A DNA stretch of 64,000 bases, from the NCBI GenBank assembly GCA_963692465.1, contig OY829943.1, forward strand, positions 417,935 through 481,934, given 5' to 3'. Both the position numbers and the translations under genes were made by a program. The stretch is from Prolixibacteraceae bacterium (GTDB taxonomy: Bacteria > Bacteroidota > Bacteroidia > Bacteroidales > Prolixibacteraceae). Below, one piece after another: positions 12,420 to 19,446 of this stretch (the first letter of the stretch is position 1; each line of letters starts with the position of its first letter). The notes under the pieces are model-generated. The model was given only the letters and a program-made list of their open reading frames with translations, made no database searches and was not told where the DNA came from.

Positions 12420-13205
12420 ATGCCAATTGAGATGGAAAATAAGCTGACGAAACGGGATATAATATCAAGAGAATTTCAGATAAAGAAATTCAATGTAAAA
12501 CACATGGTCCCGACGGTCACTCTGACAATAAACGTTGAAGCTGATAATTTGATTCAACGTAAAAAGGATATCAACGGTAATGCTAATTCACCGCACCTGA
12601 CAGTTACTCATATCATTCTGAAAGCGGTTGCTGAGGTCATTGTTAACTATCCGTTGTTATACAGCTTCTTTGATAGGCACAAGATCGTCCCCAATGCCGA
12701 GTTAATTTTGAATATTCCCGTTGCCATAGAAAATCATGTCGAATATGTCTCCATTCATAATGCCGAATCAAAATCATTGGAGGATATTGCAAGTGAATGC
12801 TCGGCTGAGATAGAAAAAATCAATAGGCACGAAGGGGAATTCATGAAATTGTTAGAAAAGATGGATAGGATGTCGGTATTACAAAAAATAGGATTTTACA
12901 TCTTTGAGCTAAAAGGTGCAGTTCCCTTCTTACGAAAATACTACGGTAATTTCCCTGTTTCAAACATCGGTTCTTTTAAGGTCAACAGTGGAACTCTGGC
13001 ATTGTCACAACCGATGGTTTCATCTCTTTGTATTGGCCGCATTACGTCTGTCCTACAAAAGGAGAATGGGAACTTGATTGACAAACTTATCTTGCCATTG
13101 AGTGTTTCATTTGATCATCGGGCCCTTGACGGGGCTTATGCCGGGGCTTTTCTGAATGAATTAAAAGAACATTTGGAAAAACCGGTATTGTCTGAAATTG
13201 AATGA
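12420..13205 (+). CDS. Stand-alone 2-oxoacid dehydrogenase E2-type (CAT-fold) acyltransferase catalytic domain
   Basis: 261 aa. It has the catalytic motif SFDHRALDGAYAGAFLNELKEHLEKP (DHR-x-x-DG) at the C-terminus. There is no lipoyl or subunit-binding domain in the ORF. It starts 5 nt after the stop of 11371..12414. Confidence 0.75.
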   Translation: MPIEMENKLTKRDIISREFQIKKFNVKHMVPTVTLTINVEADNLIQRKKDINGNANSPHLTVTHIILKAVAEVIVNYPLLYSFFDRHKIVPNAELILNIPVAIENHVEYVSIHNAESKSLEDIASECSAEIEKINRHEGEFMKLLEKMDRMSVLQKIGFYIFELKGAVPFLRKYYGNFPVSNIGSFKVNSGTLALSQPMVSSLCIGRITSVLQKENGNLIDKLILPLSVSFDHRALDGAYAGAFLNELKEHLEKPVLSEIE

Positions 13206-13232
13206 GTAAGTGAGTTTTCCGGCAAAATCGTT

Positions 13233-13262
13233 ACAAATTACCAATATGAGTGTATTGGATTT
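13233..13262 (+). repeat. Copy of the last ~30 nt of the ATPase CDS 16604..17803
   Basis: ACAAATTACCAATATGAGTGTATTGGATTT here versus ACAAATTACCAATATGGTGTATAGGATTT at 17766..17793. Confidence 0.7.
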
Positions 13263-13265
13263 GTG

Positions 13266-13289
13266 AAAGCCTATTCGTAGGCTTTTTTT
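13266..13289 (+). terminator. Rho-independent terminator after the glycan tailoring operon
   Basis: Stem AAAGCCT / AGGCTTT with a 6-nt loop, followed by a T-run. Confidence 0.7.
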
Positions 13290-13301
13290 GTTCCTCTATG
13301 T

Positions 13302-13334
13302 TGTCTGATAATTATTGACATGGATAAAATTTCA
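13302..13334 (+). repeat. 33-nt core repeat, copy 1 (TGTCTGATAATTATTGACATGGATAAAATTTCA)
   Basis: An identical 33-mer occurs at 16284..16316, and a copy with 2 substitutions at 18069..18101. All three are in the same orientation. Confidence 0.85.
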
Positions 13335-13341
13335 AGTTGCC

Positions 13342-13662
13342 ATGAAAAACAACAAAGTAATTGACAGATTAAATCAAATCGTTTCTTCTGAACCATCCAA
13401 ATGGCTTGATGATGAAAAAAGAAGAAAAGAGAATCGCGATTGGTTGAATAATTCAACTAAAATCGCCATACGAATACTACGGGCTATAAGAGCTCAAAAA
13501 GAGACGAGAAATATGTCACAAAAAATGCTCGCTGACATAATGGGGGTTAGTCAACAATATATTAGCAAAATAGTAAAAGGGCAAGAGAACCTTTCTCTGG
13601 AAACAATCTGCAAGCTTGAAAAAGCTCTTGGAATTGTTCTTGTTGAGATTCCGAAACTTTAG
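13342..13662 (+). CDS. XRE-family helix-turn-helix transcriptional regulator
   Basis: ORF 13315..13662; the ATG at 13342 (MKNNKVIDRL) is preferred. It has the HTH_3 motif MSQKMLADIMGVSQQYISKIVKGQENLSLETICKLEKALG. Confidence 0.8.
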   Translation: MKNNKVIDRLNQIVSSEPSKWLDDEKRRKENRDWLNNSTKIAIRILRAIRAQKETRNMSQKMLADIMGVSQQYISKIVKGQENLSLETICKLEKALGIVLVEIPKL

Positions 13663-13670
13663 AAGAAACC

Positions 13671-13713
13671 TGTCTCAATGGAATTATCTGTATCGCATGC
13701 TGAAATTGAGACA
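13671..13713 (+). promoter_or_regulatory. 9-bp inverted repeat between the XRE gene and the ATPase gene (operator or weak terminator)
   Basis: TGTCTCAAT (13671-13679) and ATTGAGACA (13705-13713) form a perfect inverted repeat with a 25-nt spacer. Confidence 0.35.
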
Positions 13714-13773
13714 ATGGAATCAGTTACAATTATTTTTGTAATTTTGTCTAAAAGCAAACAATAATATTACACC

Positions 13774-14826
13774 ATGATTAATCGGGTAAATATCAAAAAC
13801 TTTCAGATATTCGATAATTTTCAGATATCAAATTTCACTCCTGTAAATGTTATCATTGGCCGCAATGATTCAGGAAAAACCAGTTTGCTAAAAATACTTT
13901 ATACAGTTACGAAGTCGGTTGAAGAATTTGGTCTAAAGCAACAACATTCTCCCGAATCTTTTAAAAAAATTATCAGTAAAAAAATCCAAAATACGTTTAA
14001 TACACATAAAACCGGGATTGGAAGTCTTGTAAAACGCGGGACAGAAAAGTTATTTTTTGACCTCACTTTTGATAATAACCAGAGCATTCATTTTTCATTT
14101 ACTGACCGAGCAACGGAGAACATTGTTGACTGTTCTGCATCAATCAATAACGTTGATAATTGTTTCAATTCCCTTTTCATCCCGGCAAAGGAGGTTCTTT
14201 CTATTTTCAAAGCAATAGAAACTTCTCGTGGCAGTTTATTTGTCCCTGATTTTGATGATACTTACCTTGACCTTGTTAATGCTCTAAAAATTCCAACGCA
14301 ACAAGGGCGGGTCGAAACAAATCTTCTAAATGTGAATAATATCCTTTCCCATCTTTTTGAAGGAGAGATTCAACAGGTTAACGAGGGATTCGATATCGAT
14401 TTTGTATTTAAAAAGGGAAAGTACGACTTCGCGATGCCGGTAACCGCTGAAGGAATTAAAAAAATTGGTGTTATTACAACACTTATCAGAAATCACCGAT
14501 TAAATAAAAATACAATCCTTTTCATGGATGAACCGGATACTAATTTACATCCGGATGCAATACGTCAGCTATGCGAAATTATTTATGATATCAGTAAAGC
14601 TGGAATTCAGATTTTCCTTTCTTCCCACAATTATTTCCTTATAAAGCAACTCTCTATCATTGCCCGCCGTGAAAAACAATCAATGAATTGTCTCTCTCTG
14701 TGTAATAATGAAGAGCAAAAAACTCAATATTTAATCGCTGATCTTAAAGACGGTATGCCGTCTAATTCAATTATTGACGAAGCATTGAAAATGTTAGATG
14801 ATGAAACTGACATTGATTTAAAATAA
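13774..14826 (+). CDS. ABC/SMC-type P-loop ATPase (AAA_15/AAA_21-like)
   Basis: 350 aa. Walker A VIIGRNDSGKTSLL, signature-like TAEGIKK, Walker B ILFMDEPDTNLHP, H-loop-like FLSSHN. No fused nuclease domain is recognisable. Confidence 0.75.
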   Translation: MINRVNIKNFQIFDNFQISNFTPVNVIIGRNDSGKTSLLKILYTVTKSVEEFGLKQQHSPESFKKIISKKIQNTFNTHKTGIGSLVKRGTEKLFFDLTFDNNQSIHFSFTDRATENIVDCSASINNVDNCFNSLFIPAKEVLSIFKAIETSRGSLFVPDFDDTYLDLVNALKIPTQQGRVETNLLNVNNILSHLFEGEIQQVNEGFDIDFVFKKGKYDFAMPVTAEGIKKIGVITTLIRNHRLNKNTILFMDEPDTNLHPDAIRQLCEIIYDISKAGIQIFLSSHNYFLIKQLSIIARREKQSMNCLSLCNNEEQKTQYLIADLKDGMPSNSIIDEALKMLDDETDIDLK

Positions 14827-14833
14827 TTATCTC

Positions 14834-15199
14834 ATGTCTATTAGCGAAAGTGGTATAACTCTTAATTTTCCGGATAACAATTATTTTCGATTTCAAAATT
14901 GCAAGGCATATCAAAAACTTTCTAATATTCATTTCAATTTTAAAGATAAAAAACCAACAAAAAACTGATCTAAACTTCATTAAAGATCAATATAAAGCGA
15001 TGTTCAGACCTTATGAAAAGCTTTTCAGCATTAAAAGTACAGTAATAAGTCATGATAAGGCTATTGAAAGATTTCAATGGGTAGAATAATATCTACATCC
15101 GATGGAATGGTCTGGATAAAGGGGCATGTAATCGGTAATTACAAATGGTTCTTCATCACTTCAGGCGATGTTTTAGCCGAAAGTTCCAAAAATAAATAG
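14834..15199 (+). pseudogene. Possible frameshifted partner gene of the ATPase (three consecutive reading segments)
   Basis: Segment 1 is 14834-14968 (MSISESGITLNFPDNNYFRFQNCKAYQKL...). Segment 2 continues in another frame from the A-rich run at about 14948-14965 to the stop at 15087-15089 (...DLNFIKDQYKAMFRPYEKLFSIKSTVISHDKAIERFQWVE). Segment 3 is in the third frame, to the stop at 15197-15199 (...DGMVWIKGHVIGNYKWFFITSGDVLAESS). Confidence 0.35.
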
Positions 15200-15298
15200 T
15201 TGGGTATTCGGAAATTAAATTTTCAACAATAACTGTAAAAATTAAACATTGATTTAATTCCATTGTTATTTTTGTATAGAAAAAAAATAAACTGAGCT

Positions 15299-15775
15299 AT
15301 GCCTACATCTTTTACTTCAACAGATTCTCAAGTTTGTATGTGGTTTAACAAATTGATTTCGTCTCTCGTAGGTGATCAAATTGAAATAGAATCAGGGATT
15401 GCTAATAAAGAAAAAAAAGATTTTTACGGGGCGGCTATGAATAGCGATTATTATAGTTTAAGTAGTAATGTTCGCTTACAATCAACACAATTTTTTATTT
15501 CAAGCATGCTAAAAGATTACATTGAAGAAATAAAAAAAAGGAATGCTCAACCGCTTTCTCTTTCATTGAAATTATCTAATTCGAAGATTCTTGCCTGGGC
15601 TATTACAAAAGATGATGACGAAGAAACAGAGAATAAGTTGTATTTGGCTGCTGCTGCAATAAATGCAAAATATTATAAAGAGGGATTTTATATTAGTACA
15701 ACGATTGTTGAAGAGTCGGATAATTACAATGCTCCCGCTCAATATCAACTTCTATTTAGCAATGGCCAACTTTAA
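15299..15775 (+). CDS. Hypothetical protein (158 aa), first gene of an overlapping pair
   Basis: A clean ORF with no motif I recognise. Its stop overlaps the next start by 14 nt. Confidence 0.6.
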   Translation: MPTSFTSTDSQVCMWFNKLISSLVGDQIEIESGIANKEKKDFYGAAMNSDYYSLSSNVRLQSTQFFISSMLKDYIEEIKKRNAQPLSLSLKLSNSKILAWAITKDDDEETENKLYLAAAAINAKYYKEGFYISTTIVEESDNYNAPAQYQLLFSNGQL

Positions 15776-16250
15776 TGAACATTTAAATCAAGCACAAAGC
15801 AATCTTTCTTTTTTACGGGAGATTAATAGTTTATCTAACCATTATTGGGATTGGCAGGTTACTACATGTTTTTATGTTGCGGTTCACCTCATTAATGCTT
15901 ATATCGCGGATAAATCTAACATGCATTATCGTAGTCACGAGGATGTAGCCCAGGCAATAAATCCGTATAATCAATTGTCTCCATTAAAAGTGACTGATGA
16001 AGTATACGTATCATATTGTAAACTTCAAAATTTATCTCGTCGGGCCCGTTATTTAATAAATGACAACATGAAAAATCGAGAAACAAATGGGCACTTTACT
16101 TCTGATAAACACTTTATTAAAGCATTAAAAAGTTTAGATAGAATATTAGATTTCTTCATCAAAAAATACCCTTCAGAATCTTTTGACACATTAGATTTAC
16201 ACTGCATGGAAGGAAAGAAAACATCTTTTGCCTATTTCCAGATTTTATAA
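15762..16250 (+). CDS. Hypothetical alpha-helical protein (162 aa), second gene of the overlapping pair
   Basis: ORF 15663..16250. The ATG at 15762 (MANFNEHLNQAQSNL) is preferred because upstream of it the frame runs inside the previous CDS. It contains one R-x4-H spacing (RETNGH). An internally deleted ghost copy lies at 17938..18020. Confidence 0.6.
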   Translation: MANFNEHLNQAQSNLSFLREINSLSNHYWDWQVTTCFYVAVHLINAYIADKSNMHYRSHEDVAQAINPYNQLSPLKVTDEVYVSYCKLQNLSRRARYLINDNMKNRETNGHFTSDKHFIKALKSLDRILDFFIKKYPSESFDTLDLHCMEGKKTSFAYFQIL

Positions 16251-16363
16251 AATGTAAGTGTTAATCTTTTTGTTGTTTAGAAATGTCTGATAATTATTGA
16301 CATGGATAAAATTTCAGAAAAAAATGTGAACTCCGATATTGTTGGCACTGAAAATGGCACTGT
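16235..16363 (+). repeat. ~130-nt direct repeat, copy 1 (3' end of CDS 15762..16250 plus downstream sequence; contains core copy 2 at 16284-16316)
   Basis: It aligns by eye, with a few substitutions and 1-nt indels, to 18020..18163. Confidence 0.85.
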
Positions 16364-16603: not shown

Positions 16604-17803
16604 ATGGAAACTCTATTTGCTAAACAAGATCGCTTGCTAAAACTGACTTCTACAAAAATAGTTCGTGAACTGATGAAACAGATTCATTGGGAAACTCAAC
16701 TGATCGCAATCCGAGGAGCACGAGGTGTAGGAAAAACAACACTTATGTTGCAATATATCAAACTAAACTATCCGACTTATAGTAGGGAAGTTTTGTATTG
16801 TACGATGGATTCTGTATTCTTCTCAAACCACAGTTTATTGGATTTAGCAGATACTTTTTATAAAAATGGTGGCAAGAGATTATTTTTAGATGAAGTTCAT
16901 AAATACCCTACATGGAGCAAGGAGATAAAGGAAATCTATGATATGTACCCTGATCTGCAAATCGTATTCAGCGCATCATCACTTCTGCAAATTCTAAACG
17001 GGGATGCTGATTTGTCCCGTCGATGTATCCCATACACGATGCAGGGACTTTCTTTTCGGGAATTCTTCCTGTTCTATAAGAATATTGAACTACCGATATA
17101 TTCGTTAAAAGATATTTTATCTTTCCCTGAGAAACTATGTGCTGAAGTAAACGATAAATGTCATCCATTGCCTTTCTTCAAAGAATATCTCCAATATGGA
17201 TATTATCCTTTTTATTTGAGAAATCAATTGGACTATTACACCAGCATAGAGCAGATAACGAACTTTATTATAGAAACAGAATTGACATTGCTGTGTAAGG
17301 TTGATGTGGCAAATGTACGTAAGCTGAAAGCATTGTTAGGAGTATTGGCAACTTCGGTGCCTTTCGAAGTGGATATTTCTAAATTGGCAACAACAATAGG
17401 AGTACACCGGAATACAGTGATTTCTTATTTGTATGATATGGATAAAGCTGAATTGATAAATATGTTATTTTCAGATCTTTTGTCGGTAAAGAAAATGCAG
17501 AAGCCGGATAAGATTTATTTAGATAACCCCAATTTGCTTTATGCGTTGGCTTCACAGCCTGTTAAAAAAGGAACAGTCCGAGAAACATTTGTTGTCAACC
17601 AATTAGCATATTTGCATCAGATAGAGTATGGAAAAACAGCCGGTGATTTTAAGGTGGATGGTCAATATTTTTTTGAAGTAGGCGGTGAAAACAAGACATA
17701 TAAACAGATTGCAGATGTGCCTGATTCATATATTCTGGCTGACAATATAGAAACTCCTTATCATCACAAATTACCAATATGGTGTATAGGATTTCTTTAT
17801 TAA
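16604..17803 (+). CDS. AAA+ ATPase with DUF4143-type C-terminal domain (COG1373 family)
   Basis: 399 aa. Walker A IRGARGVGKTTLM, Walker B RLFLDEVHKYPTW, and a C-terminal winged-helix/DUF4143-like region. Confidence 0.8.
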   Translation: METLFAKQDRLLKLTSTKIVRELMKQIHWETQLIAIRGARGVGKTTLMLQYIKLNYPTYSREVLYCTMDSVFFSNHSLLDLADTFYKNGGKRLFLDEVHKYPTWSKEIKEIYDMYPDLQIVFSASSLLQILNGDADLSRRCIPYTMQGLSFREFFLFYKNIELPIYSLKDILSFPEKLCAEVNDKCHPLPFFKEYLQYGYYPFYLRNQLDYYTSIEQITNFIIETELTLLCKVDVANVRKLKALLGVLATSVPFEVDISKLATTIGVHRNTVISYLYDMDKAELINMLFSDLLSVKKMQKPDKIYLDNPNLLYALASQPVKKGTVRETFVVNQLAYLHQIEYGKTAGDFKVDGQYFFEVGGENKTYKQIADVPDSYILADNIETPYHHKLPIWCIGFLY

Positions 17804-17823: not shown

Positions 17824-17879
17824 TTAAAAGAACGTTTGGAAAAACCGGCATTATCTGGAATTGAATAAGTAAGTTTTCC
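17824..17879 (+). pseudogene. Ghost of the 3' end of an E2-type acyltransferase gene
   Basis: It still reads LKERLEKPALSGIE-stop, versus LKEHLEKPVLSEIE-stop at the end of CDS 12420..13205 (nt 13161-13220). The flanking GTAAGT..GTTTTCC is also shared. Confidence 0.75.
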
Positions 17880-17937: not shown

Positions 17938-18020
17938 CATTATTGGGATTGGCAGGTTACTACATGTTTTTATGTTGCAATTCACCTCATTAATGCTTAT
18001 ATCGCGGATAAATCTAACAT
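17938..18020 (+). pseudogene. Ghost (5'-truncated, internally deleted) of a second copy of CDS 15762..16250
   Basis: It matches 15839..15922 with 2 substitutions. It then joins directly to the sequence homologous to 16235 onward, so about 0.3 kb of the gene is missing. Confidence 0.8.
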
Positions 18021-18163
18021 TTCCAGATTTCATGAAATATAAGTGCTAATTTTTTTGTTGTTTAGAAATGTCTGATAATTACTGACGTGGATAAAATTTC
18101 AAAAAAAATGTGAACTCTGATATTGTTGGCACTGTAAACGACACTGTAAATGGCACTGTAAAT
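18020..18163 (+). repeat. ~130-nt direct repeat, copy 2 (contains core copy 3 at 18069-18101), ending in three tandem 12-mers
   Basis: It aligns to 16235..16363. The tail is GGCACTGTAAAC GACACTGTAAAT GGCACTGTAAAT (18128-18163), where copy 1 has only GGCACTGAAAAT GGCACTGT. Confidence 0.85.
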
Positions 18164-19446
18164 TATTTAATAGCATACAATGGAACGTTTGTCATCCATG
18201 ATTCTTCCTTGTAATCGGACAACGAGGTCCGGATGGCTTTTGAAGGTTTATACTTTTCACAAAACAACCTGAAACTTTTGGCGTTCAGGTTTTCACCCGA
18301 TTTTACCTCAATGGGGATAACTTCCCCTTGGTCCTGAATGACGAAATCGACTTCCGCCGTACTCCGATCATTTGTCCAATATCCAATATAGCGTTCACTG
18401 TCCAGACGCAATTGCTGCATCACGTACTGCTCTGTGAGTGCCCCTTTAAACTCGGTAAAGATTCCATCTCCCTCAATGATCGTCCGAACGTTAAGCCCAG
18501 CCATGGCACCAAGCAAGCCTACATCGTGCAGAAATAATTTAAATACGGAAACATTCTGGTAAGCGGCAAGCGGGATTCCTGGTTTTGATACCCGATAGCA
18601 TTTCAGCAATAAGCCACAATCCGTCAGCCACTGGATAGCTAACTCAAAGTCTTTGGATCGAGCTCCCTCTCTGATTACTCCATATACAAATTTTTTATTC
18701 TCTTTAGCTAATTGCGACGGGACACTTTGCCAAACCATCCGGATGCGGGGAACGGTTTCATTAGGTGCATGCTTGGAAAAATCACCTTCATAGGAGTTAA
18801 GTATCCTGTTCTGAATGCGGCGAACCAGTTGCCAATCGCGAGTTTGAACAAAAGCATCCACCACTTCGGGCATTCCCCCCACATAGAAATAATAGCGGAG
18901 ATATTCTTTAAGTTTCTCCGTAAAAATAGAAAGGACGCTCCAGTTCTTAGCCGTTAGTGCTTCAACCAATGCCTTTTCATTCTGAGATAACAGGAATTCG
19001 GAGAACGAAAGCGGACGCAAATCCAAAAAATCAACCTTCCCGACAGGAAAAGAAACTTGACTATGCAACCCCATTCCAAGCAAGGAACCGGCTGCAACCA
19101 CATGGTATTGGGGTGCTTTCTCACAGAAATATTTCAGAGAGGTAACACCACGTTCTGCTGACTGGATTTCGTCTAAAATAATCAATGTATCTTCGGCTGT
19201 TATTGTGGTTTGAGCATGTATCTGAAGCACTGTTATTATCCGTTCAATATCGAAATCGTTAGTGAAAATAGTTTGCAATGCAGGGGTTTCCTCAAAATTC
19301 ACATAGATGAATTTAGCATACGAAGTACGACCAAACTCCTGCAAGAGCCATGTCTTTCCTACCTGTCGCGCACCTCTTACAATCAGTGGCTTACGGAATT
19401 TATCTTCCTTCCACTTCTTTAAACTGACAATTGATTCCCGATACAT
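18163..19446 (-). CDS. AAA+ ATPase with DUF4143-type C-terminal domain (COG1373 family)
   Basis: 427 aa. Walker A VRGARQVGKTWLL, Walker B LIILDEIQ, and a C-terminal PD-(D/E)xK-like/DUF4143 region (EVDFVI...IPIEVKSG). Confidence 0.8.
   Translation of the reverse strand: MYRESIVSLKKWKEDKFRKPLIVRGARQVGKTWLLQEFGRTSYAKFIYVNFEETPALQTIFTNDFDIERIITVLQIHAQTTITAEDTLIILDEIQSAERGVTSLKYFCEKAPQYHVVAAGSLLGMGLHSQVSFPVGKVDFLDLRPLSFSEFLLSQNEKALVEALTAKNWSVLSIFTEKLKEYLRYYFYVGGMPEVVDAFVQTRDWQLVRRIQNRILNSYEGDFSKHAPNETVPRIRMVWQSVPSQLAKENKKFVYGVIREGARSKDFELAIQWLTDCGLLLKCYRVSKPGIPLAAYQNVSVFKLFLHDVGLLGAMAGLNVRTIIEGDGIFTEFKGALTEQYVMQQLRLDSERYIGYWTNDRSTAEVDFVIQDQGEVIPIEVKSGENLNAKSFRLFCEKYKPSKAIRTSLSDYKEESWMTNVPLYAIK

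What the first reader, a model, noticed from the sequence alone, without database searches (positions are those of the whole stretch)
15299..16250. Overlapping two-gene module of unknown function with toxin-antitoxin-like architecture
Seen: two small ORFs (158 and 162 aa) overlap by 14 nt (ATG at 15762 inside the end of the first ORF, stop at 15773-15775). They have their own long upstream gap (15200-15298). A second, degraded copy of the distal gene lies 1.7 kb away (17938-18020). I recognise no family for either protein. The second is predicted to be helical by composition and contains a single R-x4-H spacing (RETNGH), which is compatible with but far from diagnostic of a HEPN-type RNase. 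The first has no nucleotidyltransferase (GS-x10-D-x-D) motif, so it is not a canonical MNT partner. Inference: the tight coupling, small size, island location and presence of a decayed paralog are what one expects of an addiction or defence pair.
Basis: partly seen in the sequence, partly recalled or inferred. Interest (0 to 1): 0.6.

Follow-up and report, generated by a model that had tools for sequence, protein, structure and literature searches.

The report
HEPN gene pair with non-MNT partner
Two overlapping small genes form one copy of a mobile, strictly conserved module, made of a HEPN-fold (RNA-nuclease-type) protein and an acidic partner from an unnamed family, that most likely acts as a toxin-antitoxin or phage-defence pair, though nobody has tested it.

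Summary
ORF A (15299-15775, 158 aa) and ORF B (15762-16250, 162 aa) overlap by 14 nt. A decayed copy of B lies at 17938-18020.

B is a confident four-helix HEPN fold (pLDDT 94.7), and the seven best PDB matches are all HEPN proteins. It carries the variant site of AF0298-type 'HEPN-T' (class II) proteins: invariant R96-Y97 at the end of helix 3, Asp/Glu at 101 in place of the canonical His, and an alternative His59.

A belongs to a large unannotated family (428 clusters at 50% identity). It has no nucleotidyltransferase motifs and is always acidic, whereas B is usually basic.

The two genes are adjacent in 84 of 85 B-seeded loci and 9 of 9 A-seeded loci, and they co-diverge (r = 0.81). They are absent from all 40 relatives searched. 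A Microcystis temperate phage carries the pair beside its integrase.

Best reading (about 0.6): B is the toxin or effector, and A neutralises it by binding. Activity is untested. This is a new variant of a known kind.

The parts
15267..15274 (+). TATTTTTG, matching the Bacteroidota -7 promoter consensus TAnnTTTG, 32 nt upstream of the partner gene's ATG
   Evidence: Read from the sequence. The same motif lies within 100 nt upstream of the partner gene in 46 of 77 homologous loci, against 6% of random 100-nt windows. The consensus itself is from my own knowledge of Bacteroides/Flavobacterium promoters.
15299..15775 (+). Gene A: 158-aa acidic partner (pI 4.8) from an unannotated family; proposed antitoxin or regulator
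   Evidence: No Pfam, NCBIfam, PADLOC or PHROGs family. 428 representative clusters. AF2 pLDDT 90.4, three N-terminal helices followed by beta-beta-alpha-beta-beta. Invariant W100, E111, N122, D141, P146.
15762..16250 (+). Gene B: 162-aa HEPN-fold protein of the AF0298-type HEPN-T kind; proposed toxin or effector
   Evidence: AF2 pLDDT 94.7. Foldseek top 7 hits are all HEPN proteins. Pfam PF05168 at E = 0.008 for this protein, and in 26 of 77 family members, best 1.9e-6. hhalign against canonical PF05168 proteins, P = 1.6e-4.
15762..15775 (+). 14-nt overlap of A's end and B's start (translational coupling)
   Evidence: Across 79 loci the A-B gap ranges from -20 to +38 nt, median 6.
15936..15938 (+). 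[quoted passage not shown]
   Evidence: H in 76 of 77. Aligns with the conserved 'TH' of canonical PF05168 proteins. Role as described for AF0298-type HEPN-T in PMC3710099.
16047..16064 (+). Codons R96-Y97-L-I-N-D101: variant of the Rx4-6H motif, with Asp/Glu in place of His, at the end of helix 3
   Evidence: R96 and Y97 in 77 of 77. Position 101 is E or D in 61 of 77. Helix 3 spans residues 79-97 in the model.
17938..18020 (+). Remnant of gene B (codons about 27-54), 2 mismatches in 83 nt against 15840-15922; no start codon and no partner gene
18019..18130 (+). Copy of B's last 17 nt and of the sequence downstream of B (16234-16345), fused directly to the remnant; contains the 33-nt core 18069-18101

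Best explanation
The two genes are an autonomous, horizontally mobile two-gene conflict module: a toxin-antitoxin pair, possibly acting as an abortive-infection phage defence.

Gene B encodes the effector. It is a HEPN-domain protein of the AF0298-like 'HEPN-T' / class II kind. [quoted passage not shown] Further near-invariant residues (R93, R94, H42, H117) line a basic surface. By analogy with other HEPN proteins, it would bind and cut RNA as a dimer.

Gene A encodes an acidic protein that is made first and is translationally coupled to B. It would hold B inactive by direct binding, as in a type II system. It would not do so by AMPylation, because it lacks every nucleotidyltransferase motif.

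Shown here: the fold, the conserved site, the obligate pairing, the co-divergence, the mobility and the charge complementarity. Inferred: RNase activity, toxicity, neutralisation by binding, and any role against phages.
For: 1. B has the HEPN fold. The AF2 model has pLDDT 94.7. The best seven PDB matches are HEPN proteins (2hsb/AF0298, 1wol, 1ufb, 4nqf, sacsin HEPN 3o10, HEPN toxin 7ae6), with Foldseek probability up to 1.00 and TM 0.58/0.73.

2. B is homologous to PF05168 HEPN, not only similar in fold. PF05168 is hit by 26 of 77 family members, best E = 1.9e-6. hhalign against 26 canonical PF05168 proteins gives P = 1.6e-4 and places H59 on their 'TH' and R96-Y97 on their 'RY'. Intermediate sequences hit both profiles.

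3. The site matches the published description of AF0298-type HEPN-T. There, the H of Rx4-6H is replaced, the R is kept, and a second conserved H sits in the helix 2-3 insert (PMC3710099).

4. The pairing is obligate. An A-like ORF lies directly upstream of B in 84 of 85 loci; the one exception is cut by a contig end. It also does so in 5 of 5 viral contigs that carry a true family member. B lies directly downstream of A in 9 of 9 A-seeded loci. The gap is -20 to +38 nt.

5. The two genes co-diverge. Pairwise identities correlate at r = 0.81, against a permutation maximum of 0.13.

6. The charges are complementary. A is acidic in 77 of 77 (median pI 4.8). B is basic in 65 of 77 (median pI 8.8).

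7. The module is mobile. It is absent from 40 of 40 relatives and present in 5 of 103 Chitinophaga genomes. Its neighbours vary, with integrases, R-M and Schlafen genes among them. In Microcystis phage Mea-Yong924-1 it lies next to the integrase.

8. One homologue of A is fused to an XRE helix-turn-helix domain, an architecture typical of antitoxins.

9. B starts with TTG or GTG in 66 of 79 loci, while A starts with ATG in 77 of 79. This fits lower synthesis of the toxin.

10. The pair usually has its own promoter motif.

11. In this window it sits among defence-type genes (HEC-02A ATPase, two PDC-S01-like ATPases), and a partnerless copy of B has decayed.
Against: No experiment exists for this family. 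According to the literature read here, none exists for any class II (PF05168-type) HEPN either. Those proteins lack the RX4H RNase motif, and their status as toxins is unproven (PMC7641770; PMC11586414).

The window's own B scores below Pfam's cut-off (16.8 against 22 bits).

Neither protein matches a PADLOC, NCBIfam or PHROGs model.

Most genomic neighbours in other genomes are ordinary genes, not defence genes.

One metagenome bin (L009) has a frameshifted A with an intact B. That is unexpected for a potent toxin, though it may be an assembly error.
Confidence: 0.6

Rival explanations
1. The module is like a type VII system. A is a strongly diverged but still active enzyme, derived from a minimal nucleotidyltransferase. 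It neutralises B by covalently modifying the invariant Tyr97, as MntA AMPylates HepT.
For: A's best PDB structural match is a putative MNT (2rff; E = 0.011, probability 0.99), and one viral nucleotidyltransferase-domain protein appears among the BFVD hits. A's order of secondary-structure elements (alpha-beta-beta-alpha-beta-beta) is collinear with an MNT that has lost its GS loop. A has conserved carboxylates: E111 and D141 invariant, E138 in 75 of 77, E102 in 59 of 77. Tyr97 of B is invariant, and class II HEPNs are noted to keep a tyrosine that could be adenylylated (PMC7641770).
Against: A has no hG[GS] loop and no DxD. hhalign of A against 31 canonical MNTs is at noise level (probability 0.8%; P = 0.29 even in a forced alignment). 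No member of the family hits an NTase Pfam model. The TM-scores are low (0.36/0.48), and most other structural hits are generic alpha/beta domains.
Confidence: 0.12
2. The pair is not a toxin system. B is a non-catalytic nucleotide- or RNA-binding HEPN domain, as proposed for human sacsin. With A it forms a harmless regulatory or stress-response heterocomplex that happens to be mobile.
For: Class II HEPN proteins lack RX4H and have never been shown to cleave RNA or to be toxic. Most neighbours of the module are ordinary genes. L009 seems to tolerate a broken A next to an intact B.
Against: B has many invariant His and Arg residues (H42, H59, R93, R94, R96, H117). This looks like a catalytic or ligand site rather than a passive scaffold. 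The module shows extreme patchiness, phage carriage beside an integrase, an acidic/basic pairing, weak start codons on B, and an HTH-fused partner in one homologue. All of these are typical of conflict modules.
Confidence: 0.2
3. The roles are reversed: A is the toxin and the HEPN-fold B is the antidote, as was first proposed historically for MNT-HEPN pairs.
For: A carries several invariant polar residues of unknown role. In a minority of type II systems the toxin gene comes first.
Against: A is acidic and less conserved than B (36% against 44% mean pairwise identity). A comes first in the operon, and one homologue is fused to a DNA-binding HTH. All of these are antitoxin traits. HEPN proteins are the toxic component in every tested HEPN system named in the papers read.
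Confidence: 0.05

Closest known systems
Class II HEPN/MNT modules (PF05168 HEPN-T + PF01909 nucleotidyltransferase; AF0298/2hsb, ST0689/1wol, TT1696/1ufb type)
   Same: B shares the fold and the variant site: an Arg-Tyr at the end of helix 3, no His four to six residues after it, and an alternative His between helices 2 and 3. The gene order is the same, with the partner upstream, the HEPN gene downstream, and the two tightly coupled. The biochemistry is likewise uncharacterised.
   Different: The upstream partner is not a detectable MNT. It has no GSx10DxD motif, is about 158 aa with an extra three-helix N-terminal region, and belongs to an unannotated family. B is about 40 aa longer than typical PF05168 proteins, with a long helix 2-3 insert and a C-terminal beta-hairpin. 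The window's B falls below the PF05168 cut-off.
Type VII HepT/MntA (class I HEPN/MNT; Shewanella SO_3166/SO_3165, Aphanizomenon HEPN-MNT, Legionella HEPN-MNT)
   Same: A two-gene operon with a HEPN effector and an upstream neutralising partner. It is mobile and widespread.
   Different: B lacks the RX4HXY motif, and A lacks the nucleotidyltransferase motifs. Neutralisation by AMPylation is therefore unlikely, and direct binding (type II logic) is proposed instead.
AbiV (Lactococcus abortive-infection HEPN; PDB 9bj5)
   Same: PMC3710099 describes AbiV as sharing the alternative-histidine arrangement of AF0298-type HEPN-T. It is a demonstrated rRNA-cleaving antiphage HEPN (bioRxiv 10.1101/2024.05.05.592566).
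   Different: The preprint reports that AbiV's antitoxin is an RNA (type III), whereas here a conserved protein partner exists. B does not match PADLOC's AbiV models. Its structural similarity to 9bj5 is weak (rank 9, probability 0.20).
RnlA-RnlB / LsoA-LsoB (type II HEPN toxin with a protein antitoxin that binds it)
   Same: The proposed mechanism is the same: a HEPN RNase held inactive by a directly binding, unrelated protein antitoxin, with an anti-phage role.
   Different: No sequence relationship was found. RnlA is a large multidomain protein with a canonical Rx4-6H motif. The gene order and sizes also differ.

Membership tests
HEPN superfamily | All-alpha four-helix up-and-down bundle with the HEPN topology | tested here: met
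   The AF2 model has pLDDT 94.7 and helices at 4-24, 29-52, 79-97 and 115-135. The seven best Foldseek PDB hits are HEPN proteins, with probability up to 1.00.
HEPN superfamily | Canonical Rx4-6H motif at the end of helix 3 | tested here: not met
R96 is invariant, but position 101 is E or D in 61 of 77 and no His follows within 4-6 residues. PMC3710099 lists families with this variation as HEPN members, so the failure excludes the canonical class but not the superfamily.
AF0298-type HEPN-T (PF05168; class II HEPN) | [quoted passage not shown] | tested here: met
   R96 in 77 of 77, E/D101 in 61 of 77, H59 in 76 of 77, with H59 lying between helix 2 (29-52) and helix 3 (79-97). hhalign aligns H59 and R96-Y97 with the conserved TH and RY of 26 canonical PF05168 proteins. 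The feature is as described in PMC3710099.
AF0298-type HEPN-T (PF05168; class II HEPN) | Score above Pfam PF05168's gathering threshold (22 bits) | tested here: inconclusive
   The window's protein scores 16.8 bits, E = 0.008, which is below the cut-off. Of 77 family members, 26 hit PF05168 at E <= 1, best 1.9e-6. The family sits on the fringe of the model.
Class II HEPN/MNT module | Adjacent partner is a minimal nucleotidyltransferase with GSx10DxD (PF01909) | tested here: not met
   No NTase Pfam hit in 77 partners. hhalign against 31 canonical MNTs gives probability 0.8%. The motif is absent from the alignment. There is only a weak fold match to MNT 2rff.
Type VII HepT/MntA (class I) | RX4HXY in the HEPN protein and GSx10DxD in the partner | tested here: not met
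   Both motifs are absent.
Toxin-antitoxin module (generic, type II logic) | Small, tightly linked two-gene operon that is conserved as a unit and patchily distributed | tested here: met
   Pairing in 84 of 85 and 9 of 9 loci. Gap of -20 to +38 nt. Co-divergence r = 0.81. Absent from 40 of 40 relatives. Present in 5 of 103 Chitinophaga genomes.
Toxin-antitoxin module (generic, type II logic) | One product is toxic and the other neutralises it by binding | not testable with these tools
   This needs expression and rescue experiments and a binding assay.
Known catalogued defence systems (PADLOC 2.0) | Match to a PADLOC model | tested here: not met
   No hit for A or B at E <= 1.

The most novel reading that the evidence does not exclude
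[quoted passage not shown] It has lost the GS loop and the catalytic carboxylates and now neutralises its HEPN by binding alone. This would be a documented evolutionary switch from an enzymatic (type VII) to a stoichiometric (type II) antitoxin. In the same module, an AF0298-type HEPN would cut RNA through the alternative Arg/His site, an activity never shown for this class.
Probability: 0.25. Interest if true: 0.7.

Novelty: new variant of a known kind. Interest (0 to 1): 0.55.

Why it matters
Class II (PF05168-type) HEPN proteins are numerous in bacteria and archaea. The papers read here state that no biochemistry exists for them, and that it is not established whether they are toxins.

This module offers a simpler handle on that question. 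It pairs a class II-like HEPN with a small non-enzymatic-looking partner. The family is large and strictly paired, and it is also found on an isolated temperate cyanophage.

If B is an RNase, that would demonstrate the alternative Arg/His active site predicted in 2013. If A neutralises by binding, that would add a new antitoxin family and show that HEPN modules can swap their controllers. It would also give annotation pipelines names for two protein families that are now 'hypothetical'.

Tried and rejected
Rejected, because it is not conserved.
- Pfam DUF5721 for A (E = 0.026). It appears in only 1 of 77 members, so it is noise.
- PADLOC, NCBIfam and PHROGs for A and B. No hits.
- PDB search by sequence profile. 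For B, only chance-level hits (LicT PRD, E = 0.013). For A, nothing.
- hhalign of A against canonical MNTs, in local, low-mact and global modes. Not significant.
- Foldseek of A against BFVD. Weak and heterogeneous hits.
- Plasmid collection. No match for B.
- Phage collection. No match for A by tblastn, although the profile search did recognise the Microcystis phage partner.
- The search for related loci with the 77-sequence partner alignment. Failed because no conserved stretch was found. It was repeated with the 5-sequence alignment.
- Base composition. The island does not differ from its flanks.
- Empty-site comparison. The flanking gene is not conserved at DNA level in relatives.
- Whether this is the 'HEPN-T (Cpin_6617)' family of PMC3710099. 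The supplement is not held. A genus-wide Chitinophaga search cannot name genomes. This remains unresolved.
- RNA-seq evidence.
- In one search the fourth query was partly mistyped by me and should be ignored. Only the first query (the real ORF 14834-14968) is used.

Full report
**Observation.** The window has ORF A at 15299-15775 (158 aa) and ORF B from the ATG at 15762 to 16250 (162 aa). They overlap by 14 nt. Homologues of B are 160-163 aa and align from their first residue with the 15762 start. A public gene call used an earlier in-frame ATG (173 aa). The 99-nt gap upstream of A (15200-15298) contains TATTTTTG at 15267-15274, which fits the Bacteroidota -7 promoter consensus TAnnTTTG (consensus from my own knowledge). 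The same motif lies within 100 nt upstream of the partner gene in 46 of 77 homologous loci, against 6% of random 100-nt windows. The pair is therefore usually its own transcription unit.

**The second copy.** It is real. 17938-18020 equals 15840-15922 apart from 2 mismatches. It is fused directly to a copy of B's last 17 nt and of the sequence downstream of B (18019-18130 against 16234-16345, about 91% identical). This is a 5'-truncated, internally deleted B with no A gene beside it. A whole-genome search found only these two places.

**What B is.** With a 77-sequence alignment, AlphaFold2 gives a confident model (pLDDT 94.7, pTM 0.91). It has helices at 4-24, 29-52, 59-65, 79-97 and 115-135, and a small C-terminal hairpin.
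- Fold. The seven best Foldseek matches in the PDB are all HEPN proteins: AF0298 (2hsb), ST0689 (1wol), TT1696 (1ufb), 4nqf (two chains), the sacsin HEPN domain (3o10) and the HEPN toxin 7ae6.
- Sequence. The window's protein hits Pfam HEPN PF05168 below threshold (E = 0.008, 16.8 against 22 bits). However, 26 of the 77 family members hit it, the best at 1.9e-6.
- Profile comparison. I collected 26 canonical PF05168 proteins and 31 adjacent MNTs from genomes of the same phylum. hhalign of the B family against the canonical HEPNs gives P = 1.6e-4 over 94 columns. It puts B's His59 on their conserved 'TH' and B's Arg96-Tyr97 on their conserved 'RY'. The cross controls (B against MNT, A against HEPN) are at noise level.
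- Bridging sequences. More distant phage and metagenome relatives hit both the B profile and the canonical HEPN profile.

**The site.** In the B family, R96 and Y97 are invariant (77 of 77). H59 is present in 76 of 77, R93 in 75, R94 in 76 and H117 in 75, and H42 is invariant. Position 101 is Glu or Asp in 61 of 77. Anantharaman et al. [quoted passage not shown] The Rx4-6H motif lies at the end of helix 3. In these families its His is missing (often replaced by Asp) while the basic residue is kept. A second strongly conserved His, coming from the insert between helices 2 and 3, could complete an alternative active site.

**What A is.** A has no consistent hit in Pfam, NCBIfam, PADLOC or PHROGs and none in the PDB by sequence. 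A profile search of 1.84 billion representatives finds 428 clusters at E <= 0.001. The 150 best listed are mostly stand-alone proteins of 150-170 aa. The AF2 model (pLDDT 90.4) has three N-terminal helices followed by beta-beta-alpha-beta-beta.
- For an MNT origin. The best PDB match is a putative minimal nucleotidyltransferase from Sulfolobus (2rff; E = 0.011, probability 0.99, TM 0.36/0.48). The rest are generic alpha/beta domains such as the MamM C-terminal domain and KH-like ribosomal proteins. BFVD gives weak, mixed hits that include one nucleotidyltransferase-domain protein.
- Against an MNT origin. hhalign against canonical MNTs is not significant. A forced alignment is collinear only if the GS loop is deleted (P = 0.29).

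Descent from an MNT therefore remains an open possibility, not a finding. The GSx10DxD motif is absent. Invariant residues are W100, E111, N122, D141 and P146. One homologue (P0176) carries an N-terminal XRE helix-turn-helix domain fused to the A domain.

**The pair as a unit.**
- B-seeded loci. Among the window and 84 other loci found through B, mostly Bacteroidota with some Ignavibacteria and Balneolales, an A-like ORF lies directly upstream on the same strand in 84. The one exception is cut by a contig end.
- A-seeded loci. In 9 of 9 metagenome loci found through A, B follows directly. In one of them B is broken.
- Spacing and start codons. The intergenic distance is -20 to +38 nt, median 6. 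A starts with ATG in 77 of 79 loci, whereas B starts with TTG or GTG in 66 of 79.
- Co-divergence. Pairwise identities of A and B correlate at r = 0.81, against a permutation maximum of 0.13. A evolves faster (36% against 44% mean identity).
- Charge. A is acidic in 77 of 77 (median pI 4.8). B is basic in 65 of 77 (median pI 8.8).

**Mobility and context.** The module is absent from all 40 relatives searched (same genus, family and order). It is present in only 5 of 103 Chitinophaga genomes. Immediate neighbours in 70 loci are heterogeneous. Integrases are the commonest family (6 of 138 neighbours), and R-M methylases, Schlafen/AlbA_2 and HTH genes occur, but most neighbours are ordinary genes. 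Five IMG/VR viral contigs carry the pair. The isolated temperate Microcystis phage Mea-Yong924-1 carries both genes next to its integrase (A profile 4.5e-20, B profile 2.2e-39). More distant B-like proteins also have an adjacent upstream gene of about 125-185 aa that matches neither the A profile nor the MNT profile. These are in Thermus phage Tsatsa, in three further viral contigs (L122-L124; L122 and L123 examined) and in a second pair in locus L007. Pairing of HEPN-T with non-MNT partners is thus broader than this one family.

In the window, the pair lies in a small accessory stretch. That stretch holds an XRE regulator, a HEC-02A/AbiLi-like ATPase (PADLOC 1e-101), a decayed HEC-02B, and two AAA_14/DUF4143 (PDC-S01-like) ATPases. 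Its base composition does not differ from the flanks.

**Mechanism proposed.** B is the effector, a dimeric HEPN protein that binds and probably cleaves RNA using Arg96/His59. A is made first and in excess, from a strong ATG against B's weak TTG/GTG and coupled start, and keeps B inactive by direct binding. On loss of the module, or on a trigger such as phage infection, free B would act.

The fold, the site conservation, the pairing, the co-divergence, the mobility and the charge pattern are shown here. Toxicity, RNase activity, binding and any phage trigger are inferred. The main caveat comes from the literature. Class II (PF05168) HEPN proteins lack RX4H, no biochemical study of them exists, and whether they form toxin-antitoxin systems still needs validation (PMC7641770; PMC11586414). 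AbiV shares the alternative-His arrangement according to PMC3710099. A 2024 preprint reports it as an rRNA-cleaving RNase with an RNA antitoxin. This shows that such sites can be active.

**Rivals.**
- A is a still-active, diverged transferase that modifies Tyr97 (type VII-like), about 0.12.
- The pair is a non-toxic regulatory HEPN complex, about 0.2.
- The roles are reversed, about 0.05.

**Novelty.** I found no paper that describes this pairing. NetFlax states that it missed even HEPN-MNT. Earlier AI notes of this scan report similar 'HEPN-T plus non-MNT partner' cassettes in other genomes. They agree with this reading but are not independent evidence, and I did not test them. I rate this a new variant of a known kind, of moderate interest.

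**Limits.** No complex prediction was possible. 

Noticed in passing
window 13342-15199: An XRE helix-turn-helix gene and an AAA_21 ATPase matching PADLOC HEC-02A (E = 1e-101) are followed by a frameshifted remnant. Its first piece (14834-14968) matches the N-terminus of HEC-02B (E = 6.9e-8). This is a HEC-02 candidate defence system whose second gene has decayed.
   Followed up: partly
window 16604-17803 (+) and 18163-19446 (-): Two AAA_14/DUF4143 ATPases match PADLOC PDC-S01 (E = 6e-27 and 8.6e-184). They lie in convergent orientation and bracket the remnant of gene B.
   Followed up: no
window 13161-13334, 16234-16345, 17824-17866, 18019-18130: Repeated junction pieces. A core of about 33 nt occurs three times in the same orientation, before the XRE gene, after B and after the B remnant. 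The last 43 nt of the acyltransferase gene (13161-13203) recur at 17824-17866, 91% identical. This looks like scars of successive cassette insertions or recombination at one site.
   Followed up: partly
protein P0176 (from the representative library): This 248-aa homologue has an XRE-type HTH domain fused to the partner (A) domain. Its N-terminal part resembles the window's own XRE protein at 13342-13662 (by eye only).
   Followed up: partly
L125 (Microcystis phage Mea-Yong924-1, MZ447863.1) 898-1908; L126 (Thermus phage Tsatsa, PQ109078.1) 1128-1857: Both temperate phages carry an upstream-partner plus HEPN-T pair directly beside the integrase gene. The Microcystis pair belongs to the A and B families. 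The Thermus pair has a B-like HEPN with an unrelated 126-aa partner.
   Followed up: partly
L007 15-847: A second, distant pair (144-aa partner plus 133-aa HEPN-T-like, overlapping by 4 nt) lies about 4.7 kb upstream of the main A-B pair in the same Chitinophagaceae contig.
   Followed up: no
79 loci, start of the B-family gene: The distal gene starts with TTG (50) or GTG (16) far more often than with ATG (13), whereas the partner gene starts with ATG in 77 of 79 loci. The window's copy is one of the ATG minority.
   Followed up: partly
window 18128-18163: Tandem 12-mers (GGCACTGTAAAT-like) abut the stop codon of the minus-strand ATPase gene. The homologous repeat copy near 16346-16363 has fewer units.
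   Followed up: no
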